A stretch of DNA of 64,000 bases from a virus (IMGVR_UViG_2974623408_000001:32001-96000); one strand, 5' to 3'; counted from the first letter of the stretch, positions 44,594-52,154 are shown. The notes: a model not told the origin generated them from the sequence alone. Program-made: numbers and translations.

Positions 44594-44665
44594 TACCGCA
44601 TGAGAGAATCGAACTCCCGACACTCGGTGTGTAAAACCGATGTTCTTCCACTGAACTAATGCGGC
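44594..44665 (-). tRNA. tRNA-Val(TAC)
   Basis: TCGGT-TTTACAC-ACCGA. Confidence 0.9.
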
Positions 44666-45057
44666 TTGCACAGACTTACATGACGAAGACTTGCATACTT
44701 ATGCGGAAATACTCTTCCACAATCACAAGTTACAGGTCCAGCTTCGACAACGATTTGAGTTCGTTTCGAAGCTGCCTCACGTTGTCTCGCTGTGCGTTTG
44801 TCACCGTGCGCAACAGTCTTTACAACGTGACAGTCATGACATCGAACAACACATTTAGCGAGCTCAGCTTCGCGACGCGCTGCTGACCAGCTCCAAATAC
44901 GATGGTCGATTTTAAGACTAGGATCGACATGATCAAGCTGTAGGTTTTCAGTTGTATTGCAATCTACGCAGACCTTGTCAGCGAACCATTCATCACGACG
45001 GCGTGCTCGCCATTCACGCTGATACTGGCGCTGTTTATCAGGGTCTTTGTAGGCCAC
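44656..45057 (-). CDS. HNH endonuclease
   Basis: C..C, LQLDHVDP, C..CH...T. Confidence 0.85.
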   Translation of the reverse strand: MAYKDPDKQRQYQREWRARRRDEWFADKVCVDCNTTENLQLDHVDPSLKIDHRIWSWSAARREAELAKCVVRCHDCHVVKTVAHGDKRTARQREAASKRTQIVVEAGPVTCDCGRVFPHKYASLRHVSLCKPH

Positions 45058-45058
45058 G

Positions 45059-45132
45059 AACGGGTGAGGAGATTCGAACTCCCACGTTCAGTTTGGAAGA
45101 CTGACATGCTAACCGTTAAACATCACACCCGC
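45059..45132 (-). tRNA. tRNA-Gly(TCC)
   Basis: TCAGT-CTTCCAA-ACTGA. Confidence 0.9.
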
Positions 45133-45173
45133 ATATTCAATTGTACCAATTAAGCGCCTCCGCTAGGAGGTCG

Positions 45174-45251
45174 TACCAGCGACGGGACTCGAACCCGCGA
45201 CGTACCCTCCTTGAAAGGGAGGTTGCCCCTTACCGTCAGAGCAACGCTGGC
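45174..45251 (-). tRNA. tRNA-Glu(TTC)
   Basis: CCTCC-CTTTCAA-GGAGG. Confidence 0.85.
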
Positions 45252-45252
45252 C

Positions 45253-45327
45253 TGGCACGGACGTGAGGAATCGAACCCCAGACATGTGGCTTTGGAGACC
45301 ACCGTTCTACCACTGAACTACGTCCGC
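45253..45327 (-). tRNA. tRNA-Trp(CCA)
   Basis: GTGGT-CTCCAAA-GCCAC; encoded CCA end. Confidence 0.9.
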
Positions 45328-45406
45328 TTGGAGCCGTTCGGTAACAGCGTCGTACGTACTGAAACCTGGGTGGCGAGCCCTTGCACACATCGTCATGTGT
45401 GTGACG

Positions 45407-45481
45407 TACCCCGTATCGGACTTGAACCGATGACCCGCTGTTTAAGAGACAGCTGCTCTAAACCATCTGAGCTAACGAGGC
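45407..45481 (-). tRNA. tRNA-Lys(CTT)
   Basis: GCTGT-CTCTTAA-ACAGC. Confidence 0.9.
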
Positions 45482-45505
45482 TTGGTGTATTTCGTTGTTG
45501 ATACC

Positions 45506-45534
45506 ATCATGACACGGGTCGAGTAGGTTGTCAA
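45506..45534 (-). promoter_or_regulatory. SigA-type promoter
   Basis: TTGACA-17-CATGAT. Confidence 0.6.
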
Positions 45535-45537
45535 CCC

Positions 45538-45696
45538 CTATTCAGAATTTAATCTGGCTCGTTCCTTGACGGCACCCTGACCTGTACCGAGACGTTCATC
45601 CAGCACAGCGATCTGTTCCTCGTTCGTACGCTCGGCACGTTTCTTTTGGTAGTACTCTGCGTTGGCTTGTCGGAATCTCTTAGCTGGGTCTGGCAT
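45538..45696 (-). CDS. 52-aa hypothetical protein
   Basis: SD AAGGAG; MPDPAKRFRQ...EQIAVLDERLG.GQGAVKERARL. Confidence 0.6.
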   Translation of the reverse strand: MPDPAKRFRQANAEYYQKKRAERTNEEQIAVLDERLGTGQGAVKERARLNSE

Positions 45697-45716
45697 GTAA
45701 TCTCCTTGTCTAATGT

Positions 45717-45791
45717 TGGACGCCGGTGCGGGAGTCGAACCCGCCTAAACTGGTTTGCAATCAGTCACCTTTGCCGCTCGGACAACCGGCG
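45717..45791 (-). tRNA. tRNA-Cys(GCA)
   Basis: Loop TTGCAAA; U73; encoded CCA. Confidence 0.9.
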
Positions 45792-49760: not shown

Positions 49761-49807
49761 CTTGTGGGCAGACTATTTATGGTGCGCGGTCTGCCAGCGC
49801 GACCCGA

Positions 49808-50542
49808 TCAGTCGGCGAAGACGAAGTCGACGATCTTCTCACCGACGTGCTTGTCCTCGATCTGATGCATGTTCGCTTCCTCGCGGGCGAACTTCACCGC
49901 TTCGCGGAGCTGCTCCACACGGTCGGCGTACTTCTTGACCGTGTCGGCCGGCAATGCACCGGAGAACTGAATGGTCGACCAGTAGCCGACGACGACGTCC
50001 TCGTGGAACAGCTGGACCTGTGCGGGATGCTTGTCCGTGGCCTCGGCGAGTACGTGGTTGCGTGGGACCTTCTTCGTACGAGTGGTCTCGGTGACGTCGG
50101 TCGCGTACACGCCCGTGTTGTCGTCGTAGGTCCACTTCATGGCCGGGTCGAGCTTGGGGAGCTTCGACACGAAGGTCGCGAGGTCTTCGAGCTGCTTCTC
50201 CAGGAAGAGCAGGTAGGTCACGGGAACACCGCTGGCGATGACCTCGGTACCGACCTTCACGTCGGCCTTGGCCTCGGTGTTGCCGACTTCCTTGGTGAGC
50301 ACGACGTCGAACAGTCGCACGAGTGCGTCGTTCATCTCGCCGATGACCGTGTGTGCGTCCTTCTGGACGAGCGTGCGCTCCGATGGGAGCTTGTCACCGT
50401 CATCGTCCTTGGGCTTGTAGGTCCGGCTGATGCCCGACCACAGCGGCGACTTCTGGATGACGTGGTAGACGTCGGTCTTTCGGCGCTCGGTCTTGCTCTT
50501 GAGCCCCTTCTCGATCGCAACCAGCTGGTTGAGCAATGTCAT
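49808..50542 (-). CDS. conserved hypothetical protein (widespread family, recalled as DUF7873), linked to the downstream ncRNA
   Basis: LNQ..A.EKG.K, GISRTY.P.D..G..LP.E, YLLFLEKQL, RTKKVPRNHV.AEATDKHPAQV, AVKFAREEAN; SD AAGGAG; high GC3. Confidence 0.85.
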   Translation of the reverse strand: MTLLNQLVAIEKGLKSKTERRKTDVYHVIQKSPLWSGISRTYKPKDDDGDKLPSERTLVQKDAHTVIGEMNDALVRLFDVVLTKEVGNTEAKADVKVGTEVIASGVPVTYLLFLEKQLEDLATFVSKLPKLDPAMKWTYDDNTGVYATDVTETTRTKKVPRNHVLAEATDKHPAQVQLFHEDVVVGYWSTIQFSGALPADTVKKYADRVEQLREAVKFAREEANMHQIEDKHVGEKIVDFVFAD

Positions 50543-50589
50543 GATTCTCCTTGTCTGAGTTTCAATGTGTTTCGTTGTGGTACATGTCA

Positions 50590-50618
50590 ATGATGACACA
50601 CAGTGAATGTGATGTCAA
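50590..50618 (-). promoter_or_regulatory. SigA-type promoter for the protein+ncRNA unit
   Basis: TTGACA-17-CATCAT. Confidence 0.65.
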
Positions 50619-50622
50619 CACG

Positions 50623-50697
50623 CGCTCCGAACGGGATTTGAACCCGCGATCCCTCGCTCGACAGGCGAGTGCTTTTGGCCAGCTAAGCTACCGGAGC
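50623..50697 (-). tRNA. tRNA-Asp(GTC)
   Basis: CTCGC-CTGTCGA-GCGAG. Confidence 0.9.
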
Positions 50698-50730
50698 ATT
50701 GATGCGCAGGTCTTTGTAAGACCTGCAGCG

Positions 50731-50802
50731 TGGACCAGAGGGGAGTTGAACCCCCACCTAACTGCTTGCAAGGCAGCCGCTCTACCGTTAAGCTACCGGC
50801 CC
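50731..50802 (-). tRNA. tRNA-Ala(TGC)
   Basis: Loop CTTGCAA; G3.U70. Confidence 0.9.
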
Positions 50803-50884
50803 AGATACCTGACGAGTCTCTGTGTGTGCCGCACTATCGTCAGGGTTAGTCACTACCACGAAAGGGGTGATGGTAGTAACAACG

Positions 50885-50966
50885 TGTGCCGAACCGGAAT
50901 CGAACCGATCCTGCGTGTAACGCAACGGGGTTACAGCCCGTCTGAACCACCAGGTTCTTCCGACAC
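50885..50966 (-). tRNA. tRNA-Tyr(GTA)
   Basis: ACGGG-CTGTAAC-CCCGT; long variable arm. Confidence 0.8.
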
Positions 50967-51453
50967 AAGGCGGGATACCGTTTCAGTAGGTCGTATCCCA
51001 GGTCACTACACAGTGACACACACACGAGGCTATTCCTCACCCGAGGGCTCGAAGCGTTCTGTTTCACACGCGGTCGGGGTCTTCAGTCACCTCGTACGAC
51101 GCTGTTGCGTCTTGCCTGTGTGCAACTTGTTGTGAGTGTACAGGTACTCTCGCTTGGTTACACGTGGTGGACATACACTGTCCGTTGGTGGCAGGGCTAG
51201 GCTGCGCTTGGTAGCAGCTTCACACTTACCCCTGTCGAGTGCATGTCGAGGACAATGGTCCCTTGGTCCAAGCACTAGCGATGCGTCTCCATTCGGAGCG
51301 CTGTTCGGTCCGCTCATAGCTTCACCTCCTTACGAATCGTAAGGAGCCTTAGCCTGTGTCGATGTACTCCATGTGTCTGACCTTTCTTCCATTTGATGGA
51401 CCCGCACTGCGTCTTGCTTTCATCCGGATTCAAACCGGCCATGCGGATCCCTG

Positions 51454-51529
51454 TCGGGATGGAGGGATTTGAACCCCCGATATCCTGTACCCAAAACAGG
51501 TGCCTTAGTCCAAACTAGACGACATCCCG
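51454..51529 (-). tRNA. tRNA-Pro(TGG)
   Basis: CCTGT-TTTGGGT-ACAGG; C1:G72. Confidence 0.9.
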
Positions 51530-51571
51530 TGGTGTGCTGCCCGTCTACCGATTAAGGCTAGGACAGCAACG

Positions 51572-51645
51572 TGCAGATGGAAGTAATTGAAACTTCGACC
51601 TCGACTGTATCAGAGTCGCGCTCTAACCAACTGAGCTACATCTGC
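51572..51645 (-). tRNA. tRNA-Ile(GAT)
   Basis: CGACT-CTGATAC-AGTCG. Confidence 0.85.
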
Positions 51646-52154
51646 CTGCGTATGTTGCAATTACCGCACGACAAAACCAAATTGTCAACTGCGTTGTCGC
51701 AACCGTTACCATTTAAATGATCCACAACTATCTTTCCGTGCAGCGATAAAGGCTCGCCGAATAACCATGCGATGACGTCCCCGCACCAATAGCACTCGTG
51801 TGGTCCTTCTCCGTAATGATCGTACGCTACTTTAGTATGTTCACGTATCCAATAACCCGTAGGGTGAGCACCAGGATGCGTTCTAACTTCATAACCTACA
51901 ACCATTTTGTATCCTCCAGCGTCATTCACATGTGTCGGATACGCGCATTCGTGACTACAAAACCGAGACTTGCCACGATTCGCTGCAATCAACGTACCAC
52001 ATCGGTCGCAACAACGTTGGCGCGCAATTCGCTTAGCTTCTGTCCAAATTTCACGACAATCGGACGAACAAATTGCTCGGTTGCCTTGTCGAGTAAAAGT
52101 CTTGTCACAGACTACACACTGGCGTTTCTTTCCTTCGCCACGTTTAGTTCCCAA
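51636..52154 (-). CDS. HNH endonuclease with N-terminal Zn-finger repeats
   Basis: C..C...CS..C repeats; VDHLNGNGCDNAVDNLVLSC..CN. Confidence 0.85.
   Translation of the reverse strand: MGTKRGEGKKRQCVVCDKTFTRQGNRAICSSDCREIWTEAKRIARQRCCDRCGTLIAANRGKSRFCSHECAYPTHVNDAGGYKMVVGYEVRTHPGAHPTGYWIREHTKVAYDHYGEGPHECYWCGDVIAWLFGEPLSLHGKIVVDHLNGNGCDNAVDNLVLSCGNCNIRRQM

What the first reader, a model, noticed from the sequence alone, without database searches (positions are those of the whole stretch)
44656..52154. All three HNH genes borrow their stop codon from U8-A9-G10 of the next tRNA
Seen: 44656-45057 ends GCCGCAT-TAG inside tRNA-Val, 48786-49229 ends GCCGCAT-TAG inside tRNA-Glu(CTC), and 51636-52154 ends GCAGATG-TAG inside tRNA-Ile(GAT). 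Each TAG is tRNA positions 8-10, and the three proteins are otherwise dissimilar. The non-HNH ORFs identified in the array stop outside tRNAs. Established: RNase P cuts at tRNA +1, and non-stop mRNAs are rescued by tmRNA. Inference: tRNA maturation removes the stop codon, so the toxic nucleases would be tagged (this phage encodes its own tmRNA), coupling their expression to tRNA processing. Caveat: an ORF entering a tRNA has about a 1-in-3 chance of being in this frame.
Basis: partly seen in the sequence, partly recalled or inferred. Interest (0 to 1): 0.75.

Follow-up and report, generated by a model that had tools for sequence, protein, structure and literature searches.

The report
Homing nuclease genes ending inside tRNAs
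Three selfish HNH nuclease genes sit so tightly between tRNA genes of a Gordonia phage that each takes its stop codon from the next tRNA; this is real, but it looks like a by-product of crowding that is also seen in phage T5, and a similar idea, that tRNA maturation cuts the stop off such a gene's message, was published for phage T4 in 2008.

Summary
Three intact HNH genes (44656-45057, 48786-49229, 51636-52154, minus strand) each end with TAG at positions 8-10 of the next tRNA (Val, Glu-CTC, Ile-GAT). A phage tmRNA lies in the same array (52631-53159).

The closest relative, Gordonia phage Phendrix (about 97% identity), lacks all three genes. There the same tRNA pairs lie 1-15 nt apart, and the tRNAs next to the inserts have diverged or been replaced. 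So these are free-standing, mobile homing-endonuclease genes wedged between tRNAs.

U8-A9-G10 reads TAG (or TGA) in 57% of this array's tRNAs, making it the first stop available in one frame. Three of three is unlikely by chance (P 0.004-0.04). But among 11 independent HNH lineages that run into a tRNA, only 3 stop at 8-10 (P 0.25-0.77). T5 hegC and hegD, PegLeg gp117 and Sixama gp134 stop elsewhere in the tRNA. Many others stop just upstream of it.

That tRNA maturation cuts the stop off is a direct consequence of the layout. A similar idea was published for T4 segB and T5 (PMC2330249). Selected control by tmRNA tagging is untested, and the phage tag ends ALV rather than LAA.

This scan has noted HNH genes joined to tRNA starts in other genomes before.

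The parts
44656..45057 (-). HNH1, free-standing HNH endonuclease gene (133 aa). Its GTG start is the first base after tRNA-Gly. Its TAG stop is tRNA-Val positions 8-10.
   Evidence: ORF; sequence; phrog_4234 8e-33; absent from Phendrix; 67% identical over residues 1-82 to HNH genes of cluster C mycobacteriophages.
44593..44665 (-). tRNA-Val(tac), which supplies the last two sense codons and the stop of HNH1.
   Evidence: ARAGORN. The homology with Phendrix (42505-44668) reaches 3 nt past its 5' end, and the sequences printed are the same.
45058..45132 (-). tRNA-Gly(tcc), directly upstream of HNH1. Its acceptor stem differs from Phendrix through compensatory changes.
   Evidence: The Gly/Glu/Trp block is only 80-86% identical to Phendrix and is rearranged.
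48786..49229 (-). HNH2, HNH endonuclease gene (147 aa) of the T5 hegA (F-TflIV) family. Its ATG lies 3 nt after tRNA-Leu(tag). Its TAG stop is tRNA-Glu(ctc) positions 8-10.
   Evidence: Pfam HNH_3 and HNH above cut-off; phrog_10822 2e-40; 36.6% identity over 92% of its length to T5 hegA; absent from Phendrix.
48721..48795 (-). tRNA-Glu(ctc), which supplies the stop of HNH2. It has the same 7-bp acceptor stem as tRNA-Val(tac).
49233..49308 (-). tRNA-Leu(tag), upstream of HNH2. Its 3' half differs from Phendrix with compensatory changes. The GGGAG of its acceptor strand lies 6 nt before the HNH2 ATG.
51636..52154 (-). HNH3, HNH endonuclease gene (172 aa). Its TTG start lies 17 nt after tRNA-Met, preceded by AAAGG. 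Its TAG stop is tRNA-Ile(gat) positions 8-10.
   Evidence: phrog_1271 2e-16. The closest database relative (45% identical, 180 aa) runs 13 residues past the point matching residue 171 of 172 here.
51571..51645 (-). tRNA-Ile(gat), which supplies the stop of HNH3. It is unrelated in sequence to Phendrix's tRNA-Ile(gat).
51387..52171 (-). Block with no blastn match in Phendrix: HNH3, a variant tRNA-Ile(gat) and a variant tRNA-Pro(tgg). It looks like a replaced, co-converted segment.
   Evidence: blastn of the window against Phendrix; junction sequences.
52172..52247 (-). tRNA-Met(cat), upstream neighbour of HNH3. In Phendrix it lies 1 nt from tRNA-Ile.
52631..53159 (-). Phage tmRNA (529 nt) in the same array, upstream of HNH3. 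Its tag frame reads roughly ANAEADVVVSDSDIAEIEAYANEAALV, followed by two stops.
   Evidence: Rfam RF00023, 90.3 bits, E 1.4e-35; tag frame read from the alignment; comparable tag annotated in phage Mareelih.

Best explanation
The three ORFs are free-standing HNH homing-endonuclease genes, that is, selfish mobile genes. They occupy the very short spacers between neighbouring tRNA genes of a Godonkavirus-type Gordonia phage tRNA/tmRNA array.

They fill the gaps almost exactly. They start 0, 3 and 17 nt after the upstream tRNA and have no stop codon of their own. Each simply runs on until the first in-frame stop of the next tRNA.

In the frame that reads positions 2-4, 5-7 and 8-10, that first stop is the conserved U8-A9-G10. 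This is the shortest read-in a tRNA offers: two extra codons. So 8-10 is the default stop and the one least harmful to the protein, not a special signal.

Shown: the genes are HNH, they are present in this phage and absent in a 97% identical relative, and the flanking tRNAs are diverged or replaced as after homing with co-conversion.

Inferred: the genes are co-transcribed with the tRNAs. As a consequence, a complete HNH message and maturation of the downstream tRNA by RNase P exclude each other on any one transcript. This should keep nuclease output low. That is probably a tolerated or mildly useful by-product, as already proposed for T4 segB and the T5 heg genes, rather than a dedicated tmRNA circuit.
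For: (1) Empty sites. Phendrix has Val|Trp 1 nt apart, Glu(ctc)|Leu(tag) 15 nt apart and Ile|Met 1 nt apart, with no HNH gene. blastn leaves exactly 44669-45057, 48815-49232 and 51387-52171 unmatched.

(2) Homing-like footprints. Compared with Phendrix:
- the tRNA-Gly acceptor stem and the 3' half of tRNA-Leu(tag) are changed with compensation;
- the Gly/Glu/Trp block is 80-86% identical and reordered;
- tRNA-Ile and tRNA-Pro are replaced.
The HNH genes have 46.5-48.9% G+C against 53.7% for the window.

(3) Each ORF ends within a few residues of its family's native end.
- HNH2 relatives mostly end 0-5 residues past the aligned region with their own TAA.
- HNH1 relatives have tails of like length.
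- HNH3 is about 12 residues shorter than its closest relative.

(4) TAG or TGA at 8-10 is present in 17 of 30 tRNAs here. In the other two frames the first stop lies beyond position 25 in more than half of cases, and at 123 and 154 nt for tRNA-Val.

(5) The same crowding occurs elsewhere, with variable stop positions.
- At 8-10: Sixama gp151, Smoothie gp26, S-CRM01 g201.
- Elsewhere in the tRNA: Sixama gp134 and PegLeg gp117 (13-15), T5 hegC (12-14), T5 hegD (21-23), EFDG1 (50-52), Myrna (37-39).
- Mareelih's HNH-like ORF reads through the whole of tRNA-Tyr.
- Own stop 2-7 nt upstream: HyRo, Francesca, a second PegLeg gene and T4 segB.

(6) HNH genes outside arrays, in five other actinophage genomes and in this one, all have their own stops.

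(7) No promoter-like site lies directly before any of the three genes.
Against: Three of three at 8-10 is improbable under a strict frame-random null (0.004-0.037). Pooling every lineage I found gives 8 of 18 at 8-10, which exceeds the 0.16-0.19 null (P 0.004-0.012). So some real bias towards the earliest stop exists. I attribute it to selection for short tails, but selection for something else is not excluded.

My survey is a convenience sample. It was partly found by homology to these very genes, and tRNA starts from ARAGORN can be off by one base.

The direction of change at site 2 is ambiguous. Phendrix's spacer looks like a remnant of the HNH2 tail, so Phendrix may have lost the gene rather than this phage gained it.

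No cleavage site, transcript map or protein data exist.
Confidence: 0.7

Rival explanations
1. One reading: the stop is placed inside the tRNA by selection. RNase P removes it, ribosomes stall at the end of the cut message, and the phage's own tmRNA tags the toxic nuclease for destruction. Nuclease level is thereby coupled to tRNA processing.
For: - The stop lies 7 nt past the RNase P site in all three genes.
- A tmRNA gene lies in the same array. Related Gordonia phages with HNH-bearing arrays also carry one (Mareelih, Forza). In RobinSparkles an HNH gene starts 16 nt after the tmRNA.
- There is a mild overall excess of 8-10 stops when the discovery set is included.
- Tight down-regulation of homing endonucleases is a known theme, and transcript clipping was proposed for segB (PMC2330249).
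Against: - Independent HNH lineages show no enrichment: 3 of 11.
- Loss of the stop would follow from any stop inside the tRNA, so it does not explain 8-10 in particular.
- The annotated T5 tRNA region fetched here (28.5-42.5 kb) lists no tmRNA, yet T5 has the same kind of overlap.
- The phage tag ends ALV rather than the LAA recognised by ClpXP (degron knowledge is my own), so degradation is not implied.
- Non-HNH ORFs use the same stop.
- Cut messages may simply be degraded without being translated.
Confidence: 0.12
2. tRNA-punctuated messages: processing at both ends defines the HNH mRNA. Trimming of the upstream tRNA's 3' end releases a nearly leaderless GUG- or AUG-start message, which actinobacterial ribosomes can translate. 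RNase P at the downstream tRNA sets its 3' end. Processing would then activate as well as limit expression, rather like the mitochondrial tRNA punctuation model.
For: - GTG lies on the first base after the upstream tRNA in HNH1.
- The same holds in its PegLeg relative, where homology reaches that GTG although the annotated start is 21 nt further on.
- It also holds in Francesca gp94, at three different tRNAs.
- The HNH2 ATG is 3 nt after tRNA-Leu.
- HNH1 has no Shine-Dalgarno sequence outside the tRNA.
Against: - HNH3 has a normal 17-nt leader with AAAGG.
- HNH2 could use the GGGAG inside the unprocessed tRNA-Leu.
- Most IMG/VR relatives start 32-52 nt after the tRNA.
- There are no transcript data. 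Leaderless translation of processed, 5'-monophosphate ends in Gordonia is assumed, not shown.
Confidence: 0.1
3. The ORFs are decaying remnants of endonuclease genes that lost their 3' ends. They are not expressed, and the shared stop position is coincidence.
For: - HNH3 is about 12 residues shorter than its nearest relative.
- Comparable ORFs in Myrna and in Mareelih/Forza look degenerate and are left unannotated or marked 'similar to'.
- Under a pure frame null, 1/27 is not extreme.
Against: - All three frames are open over the full family length and keep the metal-finger motifs: DH..N..CxxC(H/N).
- HNH1 and HNH2 end within a few residues of the family norm.
- The starts are conserved with relatives.
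Confidence: 0.06

Closest known systems
Phage T5 HNH endonucleases of the tRNA gene region (hegA = F-TflIV, hegC, hegD; Akulenko et al. 2004, as cited in PMC2330249)
   Same: - HNH2 is a sequence relative of hegA: 36.6% identity over 92% of its length.
- These are free-standing HNH genes set between tRNA genes.
- In the curated T5 record, hegC and hegD end inside the next tRNA gene, at positions 12-14 and 21-23. So does T5.069, at 22-24.
- Lowered expression through processing of the primary transcript was already suggested for them.
   Different: - None of the T5 stops is at 8-10.
- The host is a proteobacterium.
- The fetched T5 tRNA region lists no tmRNA.
- hegA is longer, with a C-terminal DNA-binding part, and ends away from any tRNA.
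Phage T4 SegB, a homing endonuclease in the tRNA cluster (Brok-Volchanskaya et al. 2008, PMC2330249)
   Same: - A selfish nuclease gene co-transcribed with a tRNA array.
- It drives preferred inheritance of the tRNA region in mixed infection.
- The authors proposed that maturation of the next tRNA cuts the message between the last sense codon and the stop, impairing expression.
   Different: - It is GIY-YIG, not HNH.
- Its stop lies 5 nt upstream of tRNA-Arg, not inside it.
- tmRNA is not invoked.
Annotated actinophage cases: Gordonia phages Sixama gp151 and gp134, Smoothie gp26 (and its relatives Norvs, Lozinak and Aphelion), Mycobacterium phage PegLeg gp117
   Same: - HNH genes in tRNA arrays whose annotated CDS overlaps the 5' end of the next tRNA.
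- Sixama gp151 (tRNA-Leu-tag) and Smoothie gp26 (tRNA-Asn) stop at TAG 8-10.
- Both belong to the HNH2 family, and Smoothie gp26 has a like tail: RKKS-x-P-x-stop.
- PegLeg gp117 is an HNH1 relative with the same GTG-after-tRNA start.
   Different: - They sit at different tRNAs.
- Sixama gp134 and PegLeg gp117 stop at 13-15.
- I found no paper discussing these overlaps.
Mitochondrial tRNA punctuation (Ojala, Montoya and Attardi 1981; from my own knowledge)
   Same: Messages are delimited on both sides by tRNA excision, start at or near the initiation codon, and lack a complete stop after processing.
   Different: In mitochondria the stop is completed by polyadenylation. Here the cut messages end in ..AA or ..AG, so added A residues would not make a stop. 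This is analogy only, not homology.

Membership tests
HNH (His-Me finger) endonuclease | Significant match to HNH family profiles | tested here: met
   PHROGs 'HNH endonuclease' families at 8e-33, 2e-40 and 2e-16. Pfam HNH/HNH_3 is above cut-off for HNH2 and sub-threshold for HNH3 (18.1 against 24.8 bits). HNH1 has no Pfam hit.
HNH (His-Me finger) endonuclease | Catalytic D-H ... N ... (H/N) motif with flanking CxxC zinc ligands | tested here: met
   Read from the translations: LDHVDP..CHDCH (HNH1), LDHINGD..NLRILCPNCH (HNH2), VDHLNGN..NLVLSCGNCN (HNH3).
Free-standing homing endonuclease gene (intron-less homing, as for T4 seg/mob genes) | Gene present or absent between close relatives at an otherwise collinear site | tested here: met
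   All three are missing from Phendrix at 94-98% flanking identity.
Free-standing homing endonuclease gene (intron-less homing, as for T4 seg/mob genes) | Sequence differences in the neighbouring conserved genes, consistent with co-conversion or a cleavage-resistant variant | tested here: met
   tRNA-Gly acceptor stem, 3' half of tRNA-Leu(tag), the Gly/Glu/Trp block, and replaced tRNA-Ile and tRNA-Pro.
Free-standing homing endonuclease gene (intron-less homing, as for T4 seg/mob genes) | Site-specific cleavage of the gene-less allele and biased inheritance in mixed infection | not testable with these tools
   Needs purified protein on Phendrix DNA, and phage crosses.
   The stop is at +8 to +10 of the tRNA in all three. 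Co-transcription is inferred from spacers of 0-17 nt and from the absence of a promoter-like site.
   3 of 11 independent lineages; binomial P 0.77 against 1/3 and 0.25-0.35 against 0.16-0.19. The sample is small and not exhaustive.
   The tmRNA is present. Its tag frame ends EAALV rather than the canonical LAA. Whether host proteases recognise it is unknown.
   No RNA run is listed for this phage (reported only as something tried).

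The most novel reading that the evidence does not exclude
In actinophage tRNA arrays, tRNA processing punctuates the homing-endonuclease messages at both ends. Trimming of the upstream tRNA creates a nearly leaderless GUG-start mRNA, and RNase P at the downstream tRNA removes the stop. Nuclease output would then be set by a race between ribosomes and tRNA-processing enzymes. The phage tmRNA, with its long acidic tag ending ALV, would clear or mark the products. 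This would give phage tmRNAs a concrete job.
Probability: 0.12. Interest if true: 0.65.

Novelty: new member of a known kind. Interest (0 to 1): 0.35.

Why it matters
It shows in one well-resolved pair of genomes how selfish nuclease genes colonise phage tRNA arrays. They fit the inter-tRNA gaps to the nucleotide, reshuffle and replace neighbouring tRNAs, and depend on the next tRNA for a stop codon. This bears on two things: how phage tRNA sets evolve, and how annotators should treat CDS-tRNA overlaps, which are often trimmed or dropped, as in Forza and Myrna.

The regulatory idea is testable in a tractable system (Gordonia terrae with SEA-PHAGES phages) and could give phage tmRNAs a function. 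But it is an extension of a 2008 proposal for T4 segB, not a new principle. The specific claim about positions 8-10 is not supported by independent cases.

Tried and rejected
- IMG/VR scans with HNH1 and HNH3 as single queries found nothing. Only HNH2 gave loci. More than half of those are one lineage sitting 32-52 nt after tRNA-Leu(taa), so they are not independent.
- Public sequencing runs: no RNA holder listed, and only one soil DNA run with a 0.05 share of words.
- ARAGORN did not call the tmRNA; Rfam did.
- I tested the 'split and rebuild' model noted elsewhere in this scan, in which the cassette lands inside a tRNA gene and strands its old 5' end upstream. No remnant of the 5' 12-20 nt of tRNA-Val, Glu or Ile lies within the ORFs or 400 nt upstream. 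I rejected it here.
- The promoter and terminator scan gave no more sites than shuffled sequence, so it is only weak support for co-transcription.
- A literature search for phage tmRNA plus non-stop messages found nothing relevant. A search on HNH, tRNA gene, stop codon and overlap found no paper on the overlap itself.
- I considered stop completion by polyadenylation, as in mitochondria. I rejected it because the cut messages end in AA or AG.

Full report
**What is there.** The window carries a minus-strand array of 30 tRNA genes at 43814-53310. Rfam also finds a 529-nt tmRNA at 52631-53159 (90.3 bits, gathering score 47), which ARAGORN missed. The window is bases 32001-96000 of a complete 122.6-kb phage genome. 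Its closest cultured relative is Gordonia phage Phendrix (Godonkavirus), with 97% identity over the matching parts of the array.

Each ends with TAG at positions 8-10 of the next tRNA:
- ...TGC AAG CCG CAT TAG in tRNA-Val(tac);
- ...AGC AAG CCG CAT TAG in tRNA-Glu(ctc);
- ...CGC AGG CAG ATG TAG in tRNA-Ile(gat).

All three are HNH endonucleases by PHROGs (8e-33, 2e-40, 2e-16). Only the second passes Pfam's cut-off. HNH1 is unrelated to the other two outside the fold. HNH2 and HNH3 share a 47-residue core. A fourth HNH gene elsewhere in the genome has its own stop and no tRNA nearby. The non-HNH ORFs in the array stop 7 to about 500 nt before the following tRNA.

**They are mobile inserts.** Phendrix has the same tRNAs but none of the three genes:
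- tRNA-Val follows tRNA-Trp after 1 nt;
- tRNA-Glu(ctc) follows tRNA-Leu(tag) after 15 nt;
- tRNA-Ile follows tRNA-Met after 1 nt.

A blastn comparison leaves exactly 44669-45057, 48815-49232 and 51387-52171 without a counterpart. Next to the inserts the tRNAs differ from Phendrix far more than the 94-98% background:
- the tRNA-Gly acceptor stem is rewritten with compensatory changes;
- tRNA-Trp has moved, and it and the Gly/Glu(ttc) stretch are 80-86% identical;
- the 3' half of tRNA-Leu(tag) is rewritten;
- tRNA-Ile(gat) and tRNA-Pro are replaced by unrelated versions.

The HNH genes are also poorer in G+C (46.5-48.9% against 53.7%). This is the footprint expected of free-standing homing endonuclease genes, which spread with flanking DNA from a diverged donor (T4 segB, PMC2330249; nuclease genes at exchange boundaries, PMC10448857, title and abstract only).

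At site 2 the direction of change is uncertain. Phendrix's 15-nt spacer (CGCAAGAAAGAACAA) is homologous to the last codons of HNH2 (CGT AAG AAA AGC AA). The same RKKS tail is found in Smoothie gp26 beside a different tRNA. So Phendrix probably lost the gene, perhaps by deletion between the GGAG(C)AC repeats. That mechanism is my inference.

**How tight the fit is.**
- The HNH1 GTG is the first base after tRNA-Gly.
- The HNH2 ATG is 3 nt after tRNA-Leu(tag), whose acceptor strand provides a GGGAG 6 nt upstream.
- HNH3 has a 17-nt leader with AAAGG.

Each ORF ends within a few residues of its family's usual C-terminus. HNH2 relatives in IMG/VR mostly end 0-5 residues past the aligned region with their own TAA. 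HNH1 relatives have tails of similar length. The closest HNH3 relative runs 13 residues past the point matching residue 171 of 172. So each gene is close to full length but without its own stop codon, butted against a tRNA.

**Is 8-10 more than chance?** TAG or TGA occupies 8-10 in 17 of the 30 tRNAs here, and the 2-5-8 frame stops there in 47% of 445 tRNAs in the other loci I fetched. An ORF entering at random should stop there with probability about 0.16-0.19, or at most 1/3 if one conditions on the triplet. Three of three therefore has P 0.004-0.037, but the pattern was picked out after the fact.

I collected further cases by three routes: homology to the three genes, all ORFs of 90 aa or more running into any tRNA in the fetched loci, and Pfam HNH scans of five whole actinophage genomes.

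Independent HNH lineages stopping at 8-10:
- Sixama gp151 (tRNA-Leu-tag);
- Smoothie gp26 (tRNA-Asn);
- cyanophage S-CRM01 g201, counted together with IMG/VR locus L003 (TGA).

Independent HNH lineages stopping elsewhere:
- Sixama gp134 and PegLeg gp117 (13-15);
- T5 hegC (12-14) and hegD (21-23);
- a Myrna remnant (37-39);
- Enterococcus phage EFDG1 (50-52);
- the Mareelih/Forza HNH-like ORF, which reads through the whole of tRNA-Tyr;
- one IMG/VR group beside tRNA-Thr (7, 13 or 35).

That is 3 of 11, P 0.25-0.77.

Two non-HNH ORFs also stop at 8-10: L050, which looks like a 2OG-Fe(II) oxygenase by eye, and L063. The T5orf172-type gene T5.069 stops at 22-24. Many array HNH genes keep a stop 2-7 nt before the tRNA: HyRo gp161, Francesca gp94, a second PegLeg gene, about a dozen IMG/VR loci, and T4 segB.

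Pooling everything, 8 of 18 stop at 8-10, which exceeds the strict null (P 0.004-0.012). I read that as a preference for the shortest possible read-in. In the other frames the first stop is beyond position 25 in over half of tRNAs, and for tRNA-Val it lies at 123 or 154 nt.

**Mechanism.** Shown: the layout. Inferred: the genes have no room for promoters or terminators of their own (one search finds none adjacent), so they are made as part of the tRNA precursor.

It follows from the established action of RNase P, which cuts at tRNA +1, that each maturation of tRNA-Val, Glu or Ile leaves an upstream fragment ending two codons short of the stop. A ribosome finishing the ORF must in turn unwind the acceptor stem. 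A complete HNH message and a mature downstream tRNA therefore exclude each other on one transcript.

Three things are unknown. Are the cut messages translated and rescued, or just degraded? Is rescue by the host or the phage tmRNA? Does tagging destroy the protein? The phage tag frame (about 27 residues, acidic) ends EAALV and not LAA (a similar tag is annotated in Mareelih).

**Prior knowledge.** Brok-Volchanskaya et al. [quoted passage not shown] They said the same had been proposed for T5 F-TflI, II and IV. HNH2 belongs to the family of T5 hegA = F-TflIV. The curated T5 record already shows hegC and hegD ending inside tRNA genes. GenBank records of Sixama, Smoothie and PegLeg annotate such overlaps.

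Earlier follow-ups in this scan describe HNH genes joined to tRNA starts in other phages and in CPR bacteria. Their 'split and rebuild' layout does not apply here. Their 'cassette travels with its own variant tRNA' layout fits HNH3 with its tRNA-Ile.

What is new here is modest. This is a clean three-fold example with empty sites in a sister phage. The recurrent GTG-after-tRNA start has not, to my knowledge, been pointed out. And a tmRNA is co-located in the array.

**Verdict.** It is a new member of a known kind, of moderate-to-low interest.

Noticed in passing
44593-44665 and 48721-48795 (minus strand): tRNA-Val(tac) and tRNA-Glu(ctc), the two tRNAs that end HNH1 and HNH2, have identical 7-bp acceptor stems (GCCGCAT/ATGCGGT, then A) and the same first 11 bases, although the rest of the molecules differ. 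The only other identical pair in the array is two serine isoacceptors. Phendrix has the same two tRNAs. This is unexplained; it could relate to a shared nuclease target or to past exchange.
   Followed up: partly
45055-45058; L103:898-903 (PegLeg); L094:1492-1497 (Francesca): The GTG start codon of the HNH gene sits on the first base after the upstream tRNA (tRNA-Gly, tRNA-Asp and tRNA-Glu respectively). In PegLeg, homology to HNH1 begins at that GTG, although gp117 is annotated as starting 21 nt later. This suggests nearly leaderless messages after tRNA 3' processing.
   Followed up: partly
52631-53159 (minus strand): The phage tmRNA is long (529 nt) and scores well only when searched locally. 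Its tag frame is about 27 residues, acidic, ends EAALV, and is followed by two stops.
   Followed up: partly
L001:6031-6044 (Phendrix spacer between tRNA-Leu-tag and tRNA-Glu-ctc): The 15-nt spacer in the HNH-less phage resembles the last codons of HNH2, so Phendrix probably lost the gene by a deletion between GGAG(C)AC repeats.
   Followed up: partly
L090:8529-9053 (Mareelih); L107:6094-6483 (Forza): An HNH-like ORF starts right after tRNA-Pro and reads in frame through the whole of tRNA-Tyr. Mareelih marks it 'similar to HNH endonuclease', and Forza leaves the gap unannotated.
   Followed up: partly
IMG/VR loci L002-L081: About 45 of 80 HNH2-family relatives start 32-52 nt after a tRNA-Leu(taa). 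This family appears specialised for the neighbourhood of tRNA genes across very different phages: T5-like, cyanophage S-CRM01, Enterococcus, Rhodococcus and Gordonia.
   Followed up: partly
L105:469-1329 (Gordonia phage RobinSparkles): An HNH1-family gene starts 16 nt after the phage's tmRNA gene.
   Followed up: no
45482-45716 (minus strand): The spacer between tRNA-Cys and tRNA-Lys(ctt) is 235 nt here against 73 nt in Phendrix. It holds a 52-aa ORF (45538-45696) and a promoter-like site with a perfect TTGACA (45534-45506). Phendrix gene 128 is missing from the window.
   Followed up: no
L095:1920-2009 (S-CRM01); L003:3455-3545: ARAGORN calls a 90-nt 'tRNA-Ile(tat)' with a long variable arm immediately after the HNH gene. 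The S-CRM01 record does not annotate it. The HNH ORF ends at its TGA 8-10 in both phages.
   Followed up: no
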